DNA of 64,000 bases from Enterobacteria phage P922: sequence record OR999189.1, one strand, 5' to 3'. Shown here in pieces: positions 10,481-59,525 of the stretch. The notes under the pieces are model-generated. The model did no database searches, was not told the DNA's origin, and saw nothing but the letters and a program-made list of their open reading frames with translations. Each line of letters opens with the position of its first letter. The first letter of the stretch is position 1. A program made the translations under genes and the position numbers.

Positions 10481-11283
<803 letters not shown>

Positions 11284-11284
11284 T

Positions 11285-11314
11285 GTTTACTTCCTCCAAG
11301 GGTTTTGATACTAT
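11285..11314 (+). promoter_or_regulatory. T4-type early promoter (denV)
   Basis: GTTTAC ... TTGATACTAT. Confidence 0.55.
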
Positions 11315-11341
11315 ACATTCATCAACTACTTGGAGGAAATT

Positions 11342-13713: not shown

Positions 13714-14076
13714 ATGAAAGCATACCAAATTCTTGAAGGCACACATAAAGGTACTATTTATTTTGAAGATGGTATTCAAGCACGAATTATTGTTTCTAAA
13801 ACCTTTAAAGAGGATTCTTTTGTAGACCCAGAAATTTTCTATGGTTTGCATGCCCGTGAAATTGAAATTGAAACACAACCTACAGTTAAAATCGAGGGTG
13901 GTCAACACCTGAACGTTAACGTTCTGCGTCGTGAAACTCTGGAAGATGCAGTTAAGCATCCGGAAAAATATCCGCAGCTGACCATCCGTGTATCCGGTTA
14001 TGCAGTTCGCTTTAACTCTCTGACTCCGGAACAGCAGCGCGACGTTATCGCTCGTACCTTTACTGAGAGTTTGTAA
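13714..14076 (+). CDS. autonomous glycyl radical cofactor GrcA/YfiD-like protein
   Basis: C-terminus ...[63 protein letters not shown] with RVSGY glycine-radical motif. Confidence 0.85.
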
Positions 14077-17270: not shown

Positions 17271-17852
17271 ATGGCGAGTTTAATTTTTACTTATGCAGCA
17301 ATGAATGCTGGAAAATCTGCTTCTCTTTTGACTGCTGCACATAATTATAAAGAACGTGGAATGAGTGTATTAGTTCTTAAACCTGCTATTGATACTCGCG
17401 ATTCTGTCTGTGAAGTCGTTTCTCGCATTGGAATTAAACAGGAAGCGAATATTATTACGGATGATATGGATATTTTTGAGTTCTATAAATGGGCTGAAGC
17501 ACAAAAAGATATTCATTGTGTATTTGTAGATGAAGCACAGTTTTTAAAAACTGAACAGGTGCATCAATTAAGCCGAATTGTCGATACATATAATGTTCCT
17601 GTTATGGCTTATGGTCTAAGGACTGATTTCGCCGGAAAATTATTTGAAGGTTCTAAAGAACTTTTGGCGATTGCGGATAAACTTATTGAACTAAAGGCAG
17701 TTTGTCATTGCGGTAAAAAAGCGATTATGACAGCTCGATTAATGGAAGATGGAACACCAGTTAAAGAAGGTAATCAAATCTGTATTGGTGATGAAATTTA
17801 TGTTTCTTTGTGTAGAAAACATTGGAACGAATTAACTAAAAAGCTCGGTTAG
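17271..17852 (+). CDS. tk: thymidine kinase
   Basis: 193 aa; AMNAGKS P-loop and C-terminal Cys cluster typical of TK. Confidence 0.95.
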   Translation: MASLIFTYAAMNAGKSASLLTAAHNYKERGMSVLVLKPAIDTRDSVCEVVSRIGIKQEANIITDDMDIFEFYKWAEAQKDIHCVFVDEAQFLKTEQVHQLSRIVDTYNVPVMAYGLRTDFAGKLFEGSKELLAIADKLIELKAVCHCGKKAIMTARLMEDGTPVKEGNQICIGDEIYVSLCRKHWNELTKKLG

Positions 17853-17861
17853 TGCAAAAGT

Positions 17862-17869
17862 TATAAATA
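17862..17869 (+). promoter_or_regulatory. T4 late-promoter box TATAAATA
   Basis: Exact TATAAATA 26 nt upstream of ATG 17895. Confidence 0.45.
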
Positions 17870-17894
17870 GGTTTATCTAACTAAAGGGGTATAT

Positions 17895-18107
17895 ATGCTA
17901 CAATTAACTGAAAAGCAACTTCGCAATCTTACTGTGCTTCAATTAGATGAAATTCGTAGGGAAGTTGGAAATATCATTTCAGCTTTGCGTCGAGAAGTAT
18001 CACTCAACCAATCTCCGGCAGACTATACTAGATTGCGAAATTTTGAAAAATACCTTGATAAAGTTAAGGCCGTGCATCGGCATAAAGTAAATACAGGACA
18101 AAAATGA
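17895..18107 (+). CDS. hypothetical protein (rI.1 position)
   Basis: 70 aa ORF, SD AAAGGGG. Confidence 0.45.
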
Positions 18108-18119
18108 TAGGAGGCCTTT

Positions 18120-18413
18120 ATGGCCTTAAAAGCAGCGGCACTTTTTGCCATGCTAGGATTGTCATTTGTTTTATCTCCATCGATTGAAGCGAATGTCGAT
18201 CCTCATTTTGATAAATTTATGGAATCTGGTATTAGGCACGTTTATACACTTTTTGAAAATAAAAGCGTAGAATCGTCTGAACAATTCTATAGTTTTATGA
18301 GAACGACCTATAAAAATGACCCGTGCTCTTCTGATTTTGAATGTATAGAGCGAGGCGCGGAGATGGCACAATCATACGCTAGAATTATGAACATTAAATT
18401 GGAGACTGAATGA
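18120..18413 (+). CDS. rI: lysis inhibition regulator rI (secreted/membrane anchored)
   Basis: 97 aa, N-terminal signal anchor; size and position of T4 rI next to tk. Confidence 0.75.
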   Translation: MALKAAALFAMLGLSFVLSPSIEANVDPHFDKFMESGIRHVYTLFENKSVESSEQFYSFMRTTYKNDPCSSDFECIERGAEMAQSYARIMNIKLETE

Positions 18414-56578: not shown

Positions 56579-56872
56579 ATGAAAAAATTTGTTTTTGCTG
56601 CAATTTTTGCTTTGGCTTCTTGTACTGCTCAGCCTGCTATGGCAGGTTATGATAAAGATTTGTGCGAATGGTCTATGACTGCAGATCAGACTGAGGTTGA
56701 AACTCAGATTGAAGCAGATATTATGAATATCGTTGAGCGTGATCGCCCTGAAATGAAAGCTGAAGTACAAAAACAGCTTAAATCTGGTGGTGTAATGCAG
56801 TATAATTATGTTCTGTATTGCGATAAAAACTTCAATAATAAAAATATCATCGCTGAAGTGGTAGGTGAATAA
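56579..56872 (+). CDS. sp: Spackle-like periplasmic protein (sp)
   Basis: 97 aa with signal peptide; T4 Sp size and position. Confidence 0.5.
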   Translation: MKKFVFAAIFALASCTAQPAMAGYDKDLCEWSMTADQTEVETQIEADIMNIVERDRPEMKAEVQKQLKSGGVMQYNYVLYCDKNFNNKNIIAEVVGE

Positions 56873-57498
56873 TGCTTTATCAAATGCACAAGTGCAAAGA
56901 CACGTACAAATATAAAGGTGCCCAGTGTTATATCATTAATCGTGAAAACGCAGGTCCAGGTCATTCGCATCAATCGCGGTTTGTATTCGTTAAAAACAAC
57001 GAAATTATAGCAGTTGCTAATTACATGCTTGCGACTAGTGATGTTAATCCGGTGCCTTTCACATATTATAATCTAATGGACTTGGCGTACGATTATAATT
57101 GGTTTAATCATGATAATTTGGCTCATATTGAAGGCGTAGGATTTGACATCTCTTATTCTAGTTACTCGTTGTGTCCTATGAGCCGAGCTCATAAAGAGCC
57201 TGAATATTTTTCATTTCGTCGGCGTGTAGACTTTGAACGCAGCACAGAGTATATCGGTGGAATCTTTGTTAAAGATAATCGAATTACTCGCATTATTTAT
57301 CCTTTGGGCTGTGGTCAAAAAGATATTGATGTTGATTTAGACTTTACTGAAAACATCATTAATCATATTGCTTCTGTGTATTTTGATATTGATCATAAAA
57401 TTGTAATATGTGGATATGAATTACCATCAGAAAAACAGTCTAAAGTGAATGTTTCTATTGATGACCAAATTTTTAATGCTTTTATGAATAGAGGTTAA
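56872..57498 (+). CDS. hypothetical protein (61.2 position)
   Basis: 208 aa ORF. Confidence 0.5.
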   Translation: MLYQMHKCKDTYKYKGAQCYIINRENAGPGHSHQSRFVFVKNNEIIAVANYMLATSDVNPVPFTYYNLMDLAYDYNWFNHDNLAHIEGVGFDISYSSYSLCPMSRAHKEPEYFSFRRRVDFERSTEYIGGIFVKDNRITRIIYPLGCGQKDIDVDLDFTENIINHIASVYFDIDHKIVICGYELPSEKQSKVNVSIDDQIFNAFMNRG

Positions 57499-57499
57499 T

Positions 57500-57664
57500 A
57501 TGAAAACATATAAAGAATTTATCAAAGAAGATATGGTCGCTGGAGATTCAGGTGGTAATCCTGAAAATATCTCTATTGGAACAACGTCAGGTGCTGTAGT
57601 AAATAAAGGTCCTGAACAGATTCCTAAAAAGAAAAAAGAGGAATCTAAAGAAAAAGAAGAGTAA
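57500..57664 (+). CDS. small protein with internal-protein-type leader MKTYKEFIKED (below the ORF-track cutoff)
   Basis: ATG 57500 after GAGGTTAAT; 54 aa, Lys/Glu-rich tail. Confidence 0.4.
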   Translation: MKTYKEFIKEDMVAGDSGGNPENISIGTTSGAVVNKGPEQIPKKKKEESKEKEE

Positions 57665-57666
57665 AA

Positions 57667-58695
57667 ATGTCATCAATACCTTGGATTGATAATGAGTTTG
57701 CATATCGTGCGTTAGCTCATTTACCTAAATTCACACAAGTAAATAATAGTTCAACTTTTAAATTACGGTTTAGATGCCCTGTTTGTGGAGATTCAAAAAC
57801 CGATCAAAATAAAGCCCGTGGATGGTATTATGGTGATAACAATGAAGGAAATATTCACTGTTATAACTGTAACTATCATGCGCCAATCGGAATATATTTA
57901 AAGGAGTTTGAACCTGATTTATATCGTGAGTATATCTTTGAAATAAGAAAAGAAAAAGGTAAAAGTCGTCCAGTAGAAAAACCTAAAGAACTTCCTAAAC
58001 AACCTGAGAAGAAAATAATTAAATCTCTTCCGTCATGCATTAGATTAGATAAACTGGCGGAAGACCATCCAATTATAAAATACGTAAAAGCTCGCTGTAT
58101 TCCAAAGGATAAATGGAAATATCTTTGGTTTACAACCGAATGGCCTAAATTGGTTAATAGTATAGCACCGGGAACATATAAAAAGGAAATATCTGAGCCT
58201 CGTCTTGTTATTCCAATTTATAATGCTAATGGAAAAGCTGAGTCTTTTCAAGGACGTGCATTAAAGAAAGATGCTCCTCAAAAATATATCACCATCAAAG
58301 CTTATCCTGAGGCAACAAAAATCTATGGTGTTGAACGAGTTAAAGATGGTGATGTATATGTTTTAGAAGGACCTATAGATTCACTTTTTATTGAAAATGG
58401 TATAGCTATTACAGGTGGTCAATTAGACCTAGAAATTGTTCCATTTAAAGATAGACGTGTGTGGGTTTTAGATAATGAACCTCGTCATCCTGATACTATT
58501 AAACGAATGACTAAATTAGTTGATGCAGGAGAAAGGGTTATGTTTTGGGACAAATCTCCCTGGAAATCAAAAGATGTTAATGATATGATTAGAAAGGAAG
58601 GTGCAACCCCTGAACAAATTATGGAATATATGAAAAATAATATTGCGCAGGGGTTGATGGCTAAAATGCGGCTATCTAAATATGCTAAGATTTAA
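57667..58695 (+). CDS. 61: DNA primase gp61
   Basis: 342 aa; zinc-binding CPVCGD ... CYNC and TOPRIM-like core. Confidence 0.9.
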   Translation: MSSIPWIDNEFAYRALAHLPKFTQVNNSSTFKLRFRCPVCGDSKTDQNKARGWYYGDNNEGNIHCYNCNYHAPIGIYLKEFEPDLYREYIFEIRKEKGKSRPVEKPKELPKQPEKKIIKSLPSCIRLDKLAEDHPIIKYVKARCIPKDKWKYLWFTTEWPKLVNSIAPGTYKKEISEPRLVIPIYNANGKAESFQGRALKKDAPQKYITIKAYPEATKIYGVERVKDGDVYVLEGPIDSLFIENGIAITGGQLDLEIVPFKDRRVWVLDNEPRHPDTIKRMTKLVDAGERVMFWDKSPWKSKDVNDMIRKEGATPEQIMEYMKNNIAQGLMAKMRLSKYAKI

Positions 58696-58892
58696 ATTAA
58701 CCCAACTAAAGCAAATGCTAAATCTACGAATGTATCGAGAGTAATTACTGGAATATTAACGCCATGAGCAATAGCAATTGGTGATAAAACAAAATTCCAG
58801 AGTAAAATTCCTATCATAGCAGAAATAGTAAAAGCTATACGTTTTTTATTACCTTTTATGGCATTAACAAGTGCCATTAATTTTTGTACCAT
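58692..58892 (-). CDS. small two-TM membrane protein, only convincing minus-strand gene in the window
   Basis: Minus-strand ATG preceded by AAGGAGGACAT; 66 aa hydrophobic. Confidence 0.5.
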   Translation of the reverse strand: MVQKLMALVNAIKGNKKRIAFTISAMIGILLWNFVLSPIAIAHGVNIPVITLDTFVDLAFALVGLI

Positions 58893-58963
58893 ATGTCCTC
58901 CTTATTGCTTTATATATTTATTGTATAATTAATCTACTAACCCATGAATTGAAAGGAAAAATA

Positions 58964-59482
58964 ATGGCTTACTTTAATGAATGTTCGCAACTGATCGAAG
59001 GCGCTGATAAAGCTCAAAATGAATACTGGGATATTCTCGGTGACGAAAAAGACCCACTGCAAGTTATGCTTGATATGCAGAAATCTTTGCAGGTTCGTTT
59101 AGCTAAAGATAAACCTGAATATAACCGTCATCCTGATGATTTGGCTACTGCAGGTGAAGTTGTTGATTGGCTGCGTAATCAGAAAGATTATATTGACGAT
59201 GAATTCCGTGAACTTCTGACTTCTCTTGGTGGTATGAGCAATGGTGAAAAAGATGCATCTGCTGTATGGAAGCCTTGGAAGTCGCAGCATGGTGAACGTC
59301 GTGAAACTCTGATTACTGATTTGTCTCCACAAGACCAGTTGGAAATTAAATTCGAAATGATTGATATTCTTCATTTCGTTCTGAACATGTTCCAAGGTCT
59401 CGGCCTTACTGCTGAAGAAATCTTTAAACTTTATTATCTGAAGAATGCTGAAAACTTCGCTCGTCAAGACCGAGGTTATTAA
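58964..59482 (+). CDS. 56: dCTPase/dUTPase gp56
   Basis: ATG 58964 (MAYFNECSQLIEGADKAQNEYWDILG...); MazG-like; T4 gp56 size. Confidence 0.85.
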   Translation: MAYFNECSQLIEGADKAQNEYWDILGDEKDPLQVMLDMQKSLQVRLAKDKPEYNRHPDDLATAGEVVDWLRNQKDYIDDEFRELLTSLGGMSNGEKDASAVWKPWKSQHGERRETLITDLSPQDQLEIKFEMIDILHFVLNMFQGLGLTAEEIFKLYYLKNAENFARQDRGY

Positions 59483-59517: not shown

Positions 59518-59525
59518 TATAAATA
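59518..59525 (+). promoter_or_regulatory. T4 late-promoter box TATAAATA upstream of soc
   Basis: Exact TATAAATA about 30 nt before ATG 59556. Confidence 0.55.

What the first reader, a model, noticed from the sequence alone, without database searches (positions are those of the whole stretch)
58692..58892. Lone antisense gene for a small two-TM protein between primase gp61 and gp56
Every other convincing gene in 64 kb is on the + strand. This minus-strand ORF has a strong SD (AAGGAGGACAT before ATG), encodes a 66 aa hydrophobic protein and is convergent with gene 61, overlapping its 3' end. Small membrane proteins in T-even early regions often act in superinfection exclusion or lysis control; convergent transcription could also regulate gene 61 or 56.
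Basis: seen in the sequence. Interest (0 to 1): 0.45.

Follow-up and report, generated by a model that had tools for sequence, protein, structure and literature searches.

The report
Conserved late small membrane-protein gene dam.1
The lone opposite-strand ORF between the primase and dCTPase genes of this T4-like phage is a real, conserved gene (called dam.1 in one T4 record) for a 66-residue membrane protein, probably made only late in infection; databases already list it as a hypothetical protein and its function is unknown.

Summary
A minus-strand ATG ORF lies at 58692-58892 (66 aa) with an AAGGAGG ribosome-binding site. Its stop overlaps the gene 61 stop by 4 nt (TTAA). In the collinear relative ECO4 it is the only opposite-strand feature among about 137.

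It is a genuine protein-coding gene:
- It is intact in 692 phage records.
- It sits at the same position, convergent with gene 61, in at least seven Tevenvirinae genera.
- dN/dS is 0.13-0.35 in every lineage tested.
- Gaprivervirus VR25 carries a tandem paralog.

The gene is already catalogued as phrog_2024 (unknown function), as RB32ORF030w, and as dam.1 in T4T. The T4 reference record leaves it unannotated.

Upstream, at 58922-58915, is AATAAATA, the commonest variant of the T4 late promoter. It is one of only two minus-strand copies of that motif in 64 kb. Opposite polarity in T4 also implies late transcription.

The protein looks single-pass and N-in: a basic N-terminus, one long transmembrane helix with an invariant W-N...P...G...P motif, and a 24-residue tail. 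A second transmembrane segment is not supported.

Function is unknown. A late envelope or lysis-related role is my best guess. Early superinfection exclusion is unlikely. Interest is low to moderate.

The parts
58692..58892 (-). Coding sequence including the stop codon of the 66-aa dam.1-family protein (phrog_2024). Residues 1-18 (58892-58839) form a basic, amphipathic N-terminus. Residues 19-42 (58838-58767) form the transmembrane helix with W32-N33...P38. Residues 43-66 (58766-58695) form the tail: the HG...P loop plus a short acidic/hydrophobic helix.
   Evidence: ORF. PHROG match, E = 8e-31. Conservation and dN/dS. AlphaFold2 helices at 2-12, 16-42 and 52-65. Hydropathy.
58897..58903 (-). 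Shine-Dalgarno sequence AAGGAGG, 4 nt before the ATG.
   Evidence: Read directly from the sequence. (A)GGAGG is kept in seven of the eight genus-level upstream contexts; ST0 (Mosigvirus) has AAGGAG.
58915..58922 (-). Late-promoter-like motif AATAAATA, the A(-13) variant of the T4 late consensus TATAAATA. It lies 22 nt before the ATG.
   Evidence: It is one of only 2 minus-strand WATAAATA sites in 64 kb; both strands together have 11 sites against 25.8 +/- 5.1 in shuffles. NATAAATA or ATTAAATA sits 14-22 nt upstream of the ORF in Tequatro-, Mosig-, Gapriver-, Moon- and Gelderlandvirus; the Klebsiella phage PMBT63 has two copies, 12 and 34 nt upstream. This holds although the flanking sequence is otherwise unrelated. 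Nine of 50 T4 late promoters have A at -13 (PMC2988020).
58909..58909 (-). Predicted late transcription start (an A). It would give a 17-nt leader, AGCAAUAAGGAGGACAU. This is inferred, not measured.
   Evidence: The T4 late motif occupies positions -13 to -6 relative to the start (PMC1524935). Counted on the sequence.
58692..58695 (.). TTAA tail-to-tail overlap of the dam.1 stop codon and the gene 61 stop codon. It leaves no room for a terminator between the convergent genes.
   Evidence: The same overlap is seen in T4, Mosigvirus, Gaprivervirus VR25 (second copy), Moonvirus and Gelderlandvirus. Klebsiella phage PMBT63 instead has an 18-nt spacer containing a GC hairpin.
58904..58929 (+). Middle-promoter-like element for gene 56 on the other strand: a MotA-box-like ATTGCTTTA (58904-58912), 11 nt of spacer, then TATAAT (58924-58929). 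It physically overlaps the minus-strand late motif and the predicted late start.
   Evidence: Read from the sequence. The MotA-box consensus and its spacing are from my own knowledge of T4 middle promoters and were not tested here.
58858..58887 (+). Terminator-like hairpin plus T-run on the early strand, lying inside the first codons of the ORF. It could stop gene 61 transcripts before the gene 56 promoter.
   Evidence: dG -8.9 kcal/mol. It is identical in T4 and absent in Mosigvirus and Gaprivervirus. One such site is also expected by chance in this region.

Best explanation
This is the window's ortholog of dam.1 (T4T locus T4Tp032), also called RB32ORF030w, family phrog_2024. It is a genuine protein-coding gene that sits as a one-gene unit of opposite polarity between primase gene 61 and dCTPase gene 56.

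**Proposed mechanism**
1. Late in infection, gp55-RNA polymerase starts at the AATAAATA motif (58922-58915), probably at A58909. This step is inferred.
2. The short leader carries a strong AAGGAGG site, and the 66-aa product is translated. Translation is inferred from the signals and from purifying selection.
3. The protein inserts in the inner membrane. Its basic N-terminus (net +5) stays in the cytoplasm. One helix (about residues 19-42) spans the membrane. A 24-residue acidic/hydrophobic tail faces the periplasm. This is inferred from the positive-inside rule, hydropathy and the AlphaFold2 model.
4. The residues invariant across all genera are W32, N33, P38, G44 and P48. They lie in the outer half of the helix and the turn after it. 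This points to a specific helix-helix contact, either self-association or binding to another membrane protein.
5. My best guess for the process is late envelope events such as lysis timing, lysis inhibition or membrane integrity. This last step is speculation, at about 30%.

The late transcript has no predicted intrinsic terminator and must run antisense into the 3' end of gene 61. I regard that as a side effect rather than the selected function.
For: **Gene reality**
- The ORF is intact in 692 phage records; 686 cover at least 80% of the query.
- About 502 Tequatrovirus-level hits compare with 501 records whose gp61 is at least 95% identical, so retention is near-universal.
- dN/dS is 0.10-0.30 in most Tequatrovirus pairs (two near-identical pairs reach about 0.6), 0.13 within Mosigvirus, 0.30 within Gaprivervirus and 0.23 for Moon versus S16.
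- Variable sites by codon position are 7/2/13.
- Gaprivervirus VR25 has a tandem paralog, and Kanagawavirus IME523 has an unannotated homolog.
- Every version tested against PHROGs (Tequatrovirus, Mosigvirus, the VR25 paralog and the Klebsiella phage version) matches phrog_2024.
- The position, convergent with gene 61 and upstream of gene 56, is the same in Tequatro-, Mosig-, Gapriver-, Klebsiella T4-like (PMBT63), Moon-, Gelderland- and Kanagawavirus.

**Late expression**
- All T4 early and middle transcripts have one polarity; only late transcripts have either (PMC2988020).
- The TAAATA-core motif is conserved 12-22 nt (nearest copy) before the ATG in otherwise unrelated upstream sequences.
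- The motif is strongly avoided elsewhere on this strand: 2 minus-strand sites in 64 kb.
- The same motif type precedes the known late gene soc in the window, at 59518-59525.

**Membrane topology**
- Kyte-Doolittle 19-residue means reach about 2.0 over residues 19-42.
- AlphaFold2 gives a helix at 16-42 with mean pLDDT 75.
- There are five Lys/Arg and no acidic residue before the helix, and two Asp after it (read from the sequence).
Against: - There are no expression data of any kind. No paper in the searchable library mentions the gene, and the T4 dRNA-seq start-site table could not be read.
- In T4 itself the motif is GATAAATA, and in Moon and S16 it is ATTAAATA. Both are rarer variants whose in vivo activity is unknown.
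- No dedicated transmembrane or signal-peptide predictor was available.
- A P-x-A-x-A|HG pattern after the helix could be a signal-peptidase site, which would change the topology picture.
- Nothing links the protein to lysis: it is not next to t, rI, rIII, e or the spanin genes, and it has no homology to them.
Confidence: 0.7

Rival explanations
1. It is an early-acting superinfection-exclusion or immunity protein of the Imm/Sp kind. In this view a small membrane protein blocks DNA entry or lysis from without by secondary phage.
For: It is a small membrane protein. It is encoded about 2 kb from sp (56579-56872, Pfam T4_Spackle), in a region that also holds imm in relatives.
Against: Its polarity is opposite to that of all early and middle T4 transcripts. 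The only upstream promoter-like element is of the late type, and the sigma-70 consensus scan found no minus-strand site immediately upstream of the ORF. It has no sequence relationship to Imm or Sp. It has one transmembrane segment, not Imm's two.
Confidence: 0.07
2. The selected function is RNA-level. Late convergent transcription from this promoter runs antisense into gene 61 and into read-through 61-to-56 transcripts, and so shuts off or destabilises early messages. The peptide would be secondary.
For: The 4-nt stop-stop overlap leaves no room for a terminator. No minus-strand intrinsic terminator is predicted for 3 kb. The late promoter physically overlaps the gene 56 middle-promoter-like element, so the two cannot be occupied at once. 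T4 is known to transcribe both strands at some sites at different times.
Against: Purifying selection acts on the amino-acid sequence in every lineage, while synonymous sites are saturated between genera. Invariant residues and a retained paralog show the protein matters. Klebsiella phages place a GC hairpin between the two genes, which would stop read-through. No Rfam family matches.
Confidence: 0.08
3. The hydrophobic segment is a cleavable or releasable signal (Sec signal peptide or SAR-like) rather than a stable anchor. The active species would then be a 24-residue periplasmic peptide (HGVNIPVITLDTFVDLAFALVGLI) or a released form, as with the RI antiholin.
For: A basic n-region, a hydrophobic core, a helix-breaking Ser-Pro and then A-x-A before HG are conserved as P-x-A-x-A-(H/Y)-G in most genera (pattern judged by eye). 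The helix is rich in Ala, Gly, Ser and Thr. There is weak local similarity to the RI SAR domain: FVLSP, 8 of 20 identical, p of about 0.003 against shuffles.
Against: The most conserved residues of the family (W32, N33, P38) lie inside the hydrophobic segment, which is unusual for a disposable signal peptide. The RI similarity disappears for the Mosig-, Gapriver-, Klebsiella-phage and Moonvirus versions. The hydrophobic stretch is about 24 residues, long for a cleaved signal.
Confidence: 0.12
4. It is a holin or pinholin-like pore former, as the UniProt label 'Holin' on one member suggests.
For: It is a small, late, membrane protein. One ortholog (phage OE5505) carries the name 'Holin' in UniRef and BFVD.
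Against: That name is an isolated automatic label; about 200 other members read are named hypothetical. The protein has no charged C-terminal cytoplasmic tail and only one transmembrane segment. It is not next to an endolysin or the spanins. T4-type phages already use the holin T. No Pfam or PHROG holin family matches.
Confidence: 0.05
5. It is not a gene: a chance ORF in an intergenic spacer.
For: Antisense ORFs of 60-140 aa are common in this AT-rich window. The T4 reference record does not annotate it.
Against: It is conserved across at least seven genera with dN/dS well below 1. The start codon, ribosome-binding site and promoter motif are retained. A paralog exists, and retention in Tequatrovirus is near-universal.
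Confidence: 0.02

Closest known systems
dam.1 of phage T4T (HM137666.1, T4Tp032, ADJ39749.1), also RB32ORF030w; family phrog_2024
   Same: It is the same gene. The length is 66 aa and identity is 92-100%. The position is the same, convergent with gene 61 with a 4-nt stop overlap. The ribosome-binding site and the ATAAATA motif upstream are also the same.
   Different: In T4 and T4T the next gene on the early strand is dam; here it is gene 56 directly. The upstream motif is GATAAATA in T4 and AATAAATA here. Every source lists the family as hypothetical or of unknown function.
T4 late genes embedded in early regions, for example soc
   Same: It has a TATAAATA-type motif a short distance before a strong ribosome-binding site and ATG. 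soc in this window has TATAAATA at 59518-59525, 30 nt before its ATG.
   Different: soc lies on the early strand and encodes a capsid decoration protein. This gene has opposite polarity and encodes a membrane protein. Its late expression is inferred, not shown.
T4 RI antiholin (rI, window 18120-18413)
   Same: It is a small phage protein with an N-terminal hydrophobic segment rich in small residues and a periplasmic C-terminal part. There is local similarity, FVLSP.
   Different: RI has a roughly 70-residue globular periplasmic domain that binds the holin T; this protein has only 24 residues after the helix. The similarity is confined to Tequatrovirus and is not significant for other genera. 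RI lies on the early strand.
T4 Imm and Sp (superinfection exclusion)
   Same: They are small envelope proteins encoded in the same early gene region.
   Different: Imm and Sp are on the early strand and act within minutes of infection. There is no sequence similarity. Sp has a cleaved signal peptide and a folded periplasmic domain, and Imm has two transmembrane segments.
Bacterial small membrane-protein regulators (for example AcrZ, MgrB, KdpF), by analogy from my own knowledge
   Same: They are single-pass proteins under 70 aa whose conserved transmembrane residues bind and modulate a larger membrane protein.
   Different: No homology. No partner is known here. This is an analogy only and was not tested.

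Membership tests
phrog_2024 / dam.1 / RB32ORF030w family | Significant profile match over the full length. | tested here: met
   E = 8.2e-31 over residues 2-66 against profile positions 1-65 of 65. The Klebsiella-phage, Mosigvirus and VR25-paralog versions also match.
phrog_2024 / dam.1 / RB32ORF030w family | Conserved position: opposite strand, tail-to-tail with primase gene 61, upstream of dCTPase gene 56. | tested here: met
T4 late (gp55-dependent) genes | A TATAAATA-type motif at -13 to -6, with no -35 element required. | tested here: met
   AATAAATA at 58922-58915, the A(-13) variant found in 9 of 50 T4 late promoters. The motif core is conserved upstream in all genera examined.
T4 late (gp55-dependent) genes | A polarity permitted only for late transcripts, that is, opposite to early and middle transcription. 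| tested here: met
   It is the only opposite-strand gene. The rule is taken from PMC2988020.
T4 late (gp55-dependent) genes | Transcription in vivo that depends on gp55, gp33, gp45 and DNA replication. | not testable with these tools
   No expression data were accessible. The dRNA-seq start-site table of bioRxiv 2024.04.04.588121 is not held as text.
   Segment 19-42 qualifies. Segment 48-66 contains D53 and D57, leaves only 9 apolar residues after D57, gives an unfavourable Hessa-scale sum of about +6, and forms a 14-residue helix in the AlphaFold2 model. No dedicated predictor was available.
Holins | At least one transmembrane segment plus a charged cytoplasmic C-terminal tail, usually next to an endolysin gene. 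| tested here: not met
   The charged region is N-terminal and the C-terminus is hydrophobic. The neighbours are the primase and the dCTPase. No holin family matches in Pfam or PHROGs.
Holins | Lethal, timed hole formation in the inner membrane. | not testable with these tools
   This needs an expression experiment.
Imm/Sp-type superinfection exclusion proteins | Sequence homology to Imm or Sp. | tested here: not met
   Pfam T4_Spackle matches the neighbouring sp gene but not this ORF. The ORF has no Pfam hit at all.
Imm/Sp-type superinfection exclusion proteins | Early expression, from the early strand and sigma-70 or MotA promoters. | tested here: not met
   The strand is opposite, and the only upstream element is of the late type. 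This is an inference from sequence, not an expression measurement.
SAR-domain antiholins (RI-like) | Homology of the hydrophobic segment to the RI SAR domain, plus a periplasmic holin-binding domain. | tested here: inconclusive
   The local match is 8 of 20 residues (BLASTP E = 0.008 for the single pair; p = 0.003 against shuffles). It holds for the Tequatrovirus version only; other genera give p = 0.19-0.82. There is no globular periplasmic domain, only a 24-residue tail.

The most novel reading that the evidence does not exclude
dam.1 is an overlooked late-phase membrane factor of the T-even phages. It would be absent from the canonical T4 gene list yet kept in essentially every Tequatrovirus and in at least six sister genera. 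Through its conserved W-N...P transmembrane motif it would bind a membrane partner (the holin T/RI system, the spanins, or the membrane-bound head-assembly initiator) to tune lysis timing or assembly. Its promoter would form a direction-switching pair with the middle (or early) promoter of the next early-strand gene, so that the same roughly 25 bp fires one way in the middle period and the other way late.
Probability: 0.2. Interest if true: 0.55.

Novelty: already known. Interest (0 to 1): 0.3.

Why it matters
T4 is among the best-studied of all viruses, yet its reference record (NC_000866.4) does not list this gene. Transcriptome, proteome and knock-down studies that rely on that record cannot see it.

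The gene is kept, in the same unusual opposite-strand position, across the T-even subfamily. It is under clear purifying selection, so it does something useful.

If it proves to be a late membrane regulator of lysis or assembly, it would add a component to a classic system. Otherwise it is simply one more conserved hypothetical small protein.

The practical outcome is modest. The ORF should be annotated as a dam.1 ortholog (a predicted late, single-pass membrane protein), and dam.1 should be added to T4 reference gene sets.

Tried and rejected
**Family and fold searches**
- Pfam and NCBIfam scans gave no family.
- PHROGs gave only phrog_2024, of unknown function.
- Rfam at permissive E-values over 58500-59100 gave nothing.
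- A Foldseek search of the AlphaFold2 model against viral structures returned only family members. All other hits have E above 1.
- An HMM search of 1.84 billion representative proteins returned 7 hits. Six are family members or fragments and one is an unrelated long protein, so no outside relatives were found.

**Literature**
- Searches for RB32ORF030w, dam.1, T4 Ribo-seq and unannotated T4 small proteins found nothing on this gene.
- The Miller 2003 T4 genome review is not held.
- The T4 dRNA-seq start-site table is not held as text.

**Related loci**
- The search for related loci with a 9-sequence alignment failed because no conserved stretch was usable.
- With 4 sequences it returned only 7 loci.

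**Hypotheses checked and dropped**
- Homology to the RI SAR domain is seen only for the Tequatrovirus version.
- The 'holin-like protein' next to the primase in cyanophage S-CREM1 is a same-strand upstream gene and unrelated.
- Aeromonas phage 44RR, Karamvirus EnC07 and Krischvirus KFS-EC have no convergent ORF at this position.
- The second minus-strand AATAAATA (13755-13762) lies inside a plus-strand gene and no ORF follows it.
- The label 'putative head morphogenesis protein' in the T2 and T6 records has no support from any search.
Full report
**What is in the sequence**

The window is a Tequatrovirus (T4-like) genome segment. The 800 bases around the finding are 99.0% identical to Escherichia phage 132 and match 694 phage records.

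On the plus strand the local gene order is:
- sp (56579-56872; Pfam T4_Spackle)
- 61.2, AdfA (56872-57498)
- 61.1 (57500-57664)
- primase gene 61 (57667-58695)
- dCTPase gene 56 (58964-59482)

AAGGAGG lies 4 nt before the ATG. The stop codon shares the palindrome TTAA with the gene 61 stop, a 4-nt overlap. No plus-strand ORF occupies 58696-58870.

**Is it the only opposite-strand gene?**

The window is collinear with phage ECO4 over 58.6 of 64 kb. In the ECO4 RefSeq annotation this ORF is the only opposite-strand feature among about 137 CDS and tRNAs. I scanned the two largest of the ten unmatched stretches. The one sizeable minus ORF found there (10974-11318) has no PHROG family, while the overlapping plus-strand ORF is an internal head protein. 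The other eight unmatched stretches were not checked.

**Is it a gene?**

ORF length alone proves nothing here, because antisense ORFs of 60-140 codons are frequent in this AT-rich sequence. The comparative evidence is decisive.
- **Retention.** tblastn finds the protein in 692 phage records, 686 of them covering at least 80% of the query. About 502 hits are at Tequatrovirus level, against 501 records whose gp61 is at least 95% identical. Retention in that genus is therefore essentially universal.
- **Homologs in other genera, all at the same position.** They occur in Mosigvirus ST0 (54% identity), Gaprivervirus VR25 and P896, Klebsiella T4-like phages such as PMBT63, Moonvirus, Gelderlandvirus S16 and Kanagawavirus IME523, where it is unannotated.
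- **Paralog.** VR25 carries two tandem copies.
- **Family.** All versions tested against PHROGs (Tequatrovirus, Mosigvirus, the VR25 paralog and PMBT63) match phrog_2024.
- **Selection.** Nei-Gojobori dN/dS is mostly 0.10-0.30 within Tequatrovirus, 0.13 within Mosigvirus, 0.30 within Gaprivervirus and 0.23 for Moon versus S16. Synonymous sites are saturated between genera. Variable sites fall 7/2/13 by codon position.
- **Absences.** Karamvirus EnC07, Krischvirus KFS-EC and Aeromonas phage 44RR lack the gene at this position.
- **Restricted range.** A profile search of 1.84 billion representative proteins found no convincing relative outside the family. The family appears confined to Tevenvirinae phages of enterobacteria.

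**Is it already known?**

Yes, as an annotation. It is 'hypothetical protein' in hundreds of records, RB32ORF030w in RB32-style naming, and dam.1 (T4Tp032) in the T4T record HM137666.1. It belongs to phrog_2024, 'unknown function'.

The T4 reference records NC_000866.4 and AF158101.6 and several other T4 records leave it unannotated, although the ORF is intact at 17738-17938. The exact T4 protein sequence appears in the protein collection only from raw assemblies, not from NCBI annotation.

I found no paper that mentions it. One member is labelled 'Holin' in UniRef, and the T2 and T6 records say 'putative head morphogenesis protein'. Nothing supports either label.

**When is it expressed?**

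No expression data were accessible, so this part is inference. Two independent arguments point to late transcription.

*Polarity.* All T4 early and middle transcripts have one polarity, and only late transcripts use either strand (PMC2988020). This gene has the other polarity.

*Promoter motif.* The minus strand carries AATAAATA at 58922-58915, 22 nt before the ATG.
- The T4 late promoter is TATAAATA at -13 to -6. Thirty-two of 50 sites are perfect and nine have A at -13.
- The motif is strongly depleted in the window: 11 WATAAATA sites on both strands against 25.8 +/- 5.1 in shuffles, and only two on the minus strand. One of those two is this one. The other lies inside a plus-strand gene with no ORF after it.
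- The same motif type precedes the late gene soc at 59518-59525.
- In T4 (GATAAATA), Mosigvirus (AATAAATA), Gaprivervirus (CATAAATA), Klebsiella phages (GATAAATA and CATAAATA), Moon and S16 (ATTAAATA), a TAAATA-core motif sits before the ATG. The distance is 14-22 nt, except in the Klebsiella phage, where the two copies lie 12 and 34 nt upstream. The surrounding sequence is otherwise unrelated.

Counting from the motif, the start would be A58909 and the leader would be 17 nt long.

**Promoter architecture**

On the plus strand, ATTGCTTTA (58904-58912), 11 nt of spacer and TATAAT (58924-58929) look like a MotA-dependent middle promoter for gene 56. The consensus is from my own knowledge and was not tested. 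The late motif and the predicted late start lie inside this element.

In T4, where dam follows instead of gene 56, the GATAAATA abuts the -35 of the dam promoter P(E)17.40 annotated in X01416. In both arrangements the late promoter is back-to-back with, and overlaps, the promoter of the next early-strand gene.

**Transcript ends**

The 4-nt stop-stop overlap leaves no room for a terminator. No minus-strand intrinsic terminator is predicted for 3 kb. The late RNA probably continues antisense into gene 61 until Rho or decay ends it. Klebsiella phages instead have a GC hairpin between the two stops.

On the plus strand, a hairpin plus T-run at 58858-58887 (dG -8.9) lies inside the first codons of the ORF. 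It is identical in T4 but absent in Mosigvirus and Gaprivervirus. One such site is also expected by chance.

**The protein**

Residues 1-18 are basic, with five Lys/Arg and no acidic residue. Residues 19-42 are strongly hydrophobic, with Kyte-Doolittle 19-residue means near 2.0.

AlphaFold2 gives mean pLDDT 75.5 from a shallow 4-sequence alignment. It predicts helices at 2-12, 16-42 and 52-65.

The last helix has 14 residues and carries D53 and D57. Only nine apolar residues follow D57, and the Hessa-scale sum is about +6. It is therefore unlikely to span the membrane.

The likeliest topology is single-pass with the N-terminus inside and a 24-residue periplasmic tail. The 'two-TM' description is not supported.

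Across ten diverse members the invariant residues are M1, W32, N33, P38, G44 and P48. A polar Asn in mid-membrane followed by Pro and a Gly...Pro turn suggests a specific helix-helix contact.

A P-x-A-x-A|(H/Y)G pattern after the helix resembles a signal-peptidase site. This is judged by eye and kept as a rival.

**Function**

Function is unknown. No Pfam, NCBIfam, Rfam or structural relatives exist outside the family.

A local match of the Tequatrovirus helix to the RI antiholin SAR domain (FVLSP; p of about 0.003 against shuffles) is not seen for other genera, and I discount it.

I commit to this reading: a late-made, single-pass inner-membrane micro-protein that acts through transmembrane contacts. 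A role in late envelope events (lysis timing, lysis inhibition or membrane integrity) is the most plausible process, at roughly 30%. Early superinfection exclusion is unlikely because of the timing argument. A purely antisense-RNA function is unlikely because the amino-acid sequence is under selection.

**Verdict**

The feature is an ortholog of an already catalogued but uncharacterised gene family.

The points of interest are:
- its absence from the T4 reference annotation;
- its tight conservation in an odd position;
- the overlapping divergent promoter arrangement.

Interest is low to moderate (0.3).

Noticed in passing
window, whole 64 kb; sites listed: The late-promoter motif WATAAATA is depleted: 11 sites on both strands against 25.8 +/- 5.1 in shuffles, and only 2 on the minus strand. 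This is consistent with selection against stray late promoters in the early region.
   Followed up: partly
window 58904-58929 (+), overlapping 58909-58922 (-): A MotA-box-like ATTGCTTTA, 11 nt of spacer and TATAAT for gene 56 occupy the same DNA as the minus-strand late motif and predicted start. In T4 the late motif (17709-17716) abuts the -35 of the annotated dam promoter P(E)17.40. This looks like a direction-switching promoter pair.
   Followed up: partly
window 58858-58887 (+): A terminator-like hairpin (8 bp, dG -8.9) plus T-run lies on the early strand inside the first codons of the minus ORF. It is identical in T4 and absent in Mosigvirus and Gaprivervirus. It could end gene 61 transcripts before the gene 56 promoter.
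   Followed up: partly
L003 (T4 NC_000866.4) 2739-2939, equal to T4 17738-17938 (+): The T4 reference record, AF158101.6, MT984581 and the KJ4776xx records do not annotate this intact ORF. T4T annotates it as dam.1, and some newer T4 records as a hypothetical protein.
   Followed up: yes
window 58696-58963 compared with L003 1786-2936: This phage has no dam or segF between genes 61 and 56, unlike T4. T2-type genomes carry a further insertion of about 540 bp next to the ORF. The ORF is retained through all these rearrangements.
   Followed up: partly
L004 (VR25) 1495-1692 and 1701-1901; L022 (IME523) about 898-1089; L015 (P896) 2233-2340: Gaprivervirus VR25 has two tandem paralogs, only about 23% identical to each other. 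Kanagawavirus IME523 has an unannotated copy of the second type. Gaprivervirus P896 has lost the second copy.
   Followed up: partly
L016 (Klebsiella phage PMBT63) 2224-2241: A GC hairpin, GGGGCtttgGCCCC, fills the 18-nt gap between the primase stop and the ORF stop. It is a likely bidirectional terminator, unlike the 4-nt overlap in T4-type genomes.
   Followed up: no
window 58767-58784 (-), protein residues 37-44: S-P-I-A-I-A|H-G, conserved as P-x-A-x-A-(H/Y)-G in most genera, resembles a signal-peptidase I cleavage site. Cleavage would release a 24-residue periplasmic peptide. Judged by eye; no predictor was available.
   Followed up: no
window 18120-18413 (+), rI, compared with ORF residues 19-38: There is local similarity between the ORF's transmembrane helix and the RI antiholin SAR domain: FVLSP, 8 of 20 identical, p of about 0.003 against shuffles. 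It is not seen with family members from other genera.
   Followed up: yes
window 56872-57498 (+): Gene 61.2 matches Pfam AdfA (anti-DarT factor A) at E = 9.5e-135. The T4 reference still calls it a hypothetical protein.
   Followed up: no
window 58871-59482 (+): The ORF lister extends gene 56 upstream to a GTG at 58871, across the promoter region and into the minus ORF. The ATG at 58964, which has its own ribosome-binding site, is the start used in related annotated genomes.
   Followed up: yes
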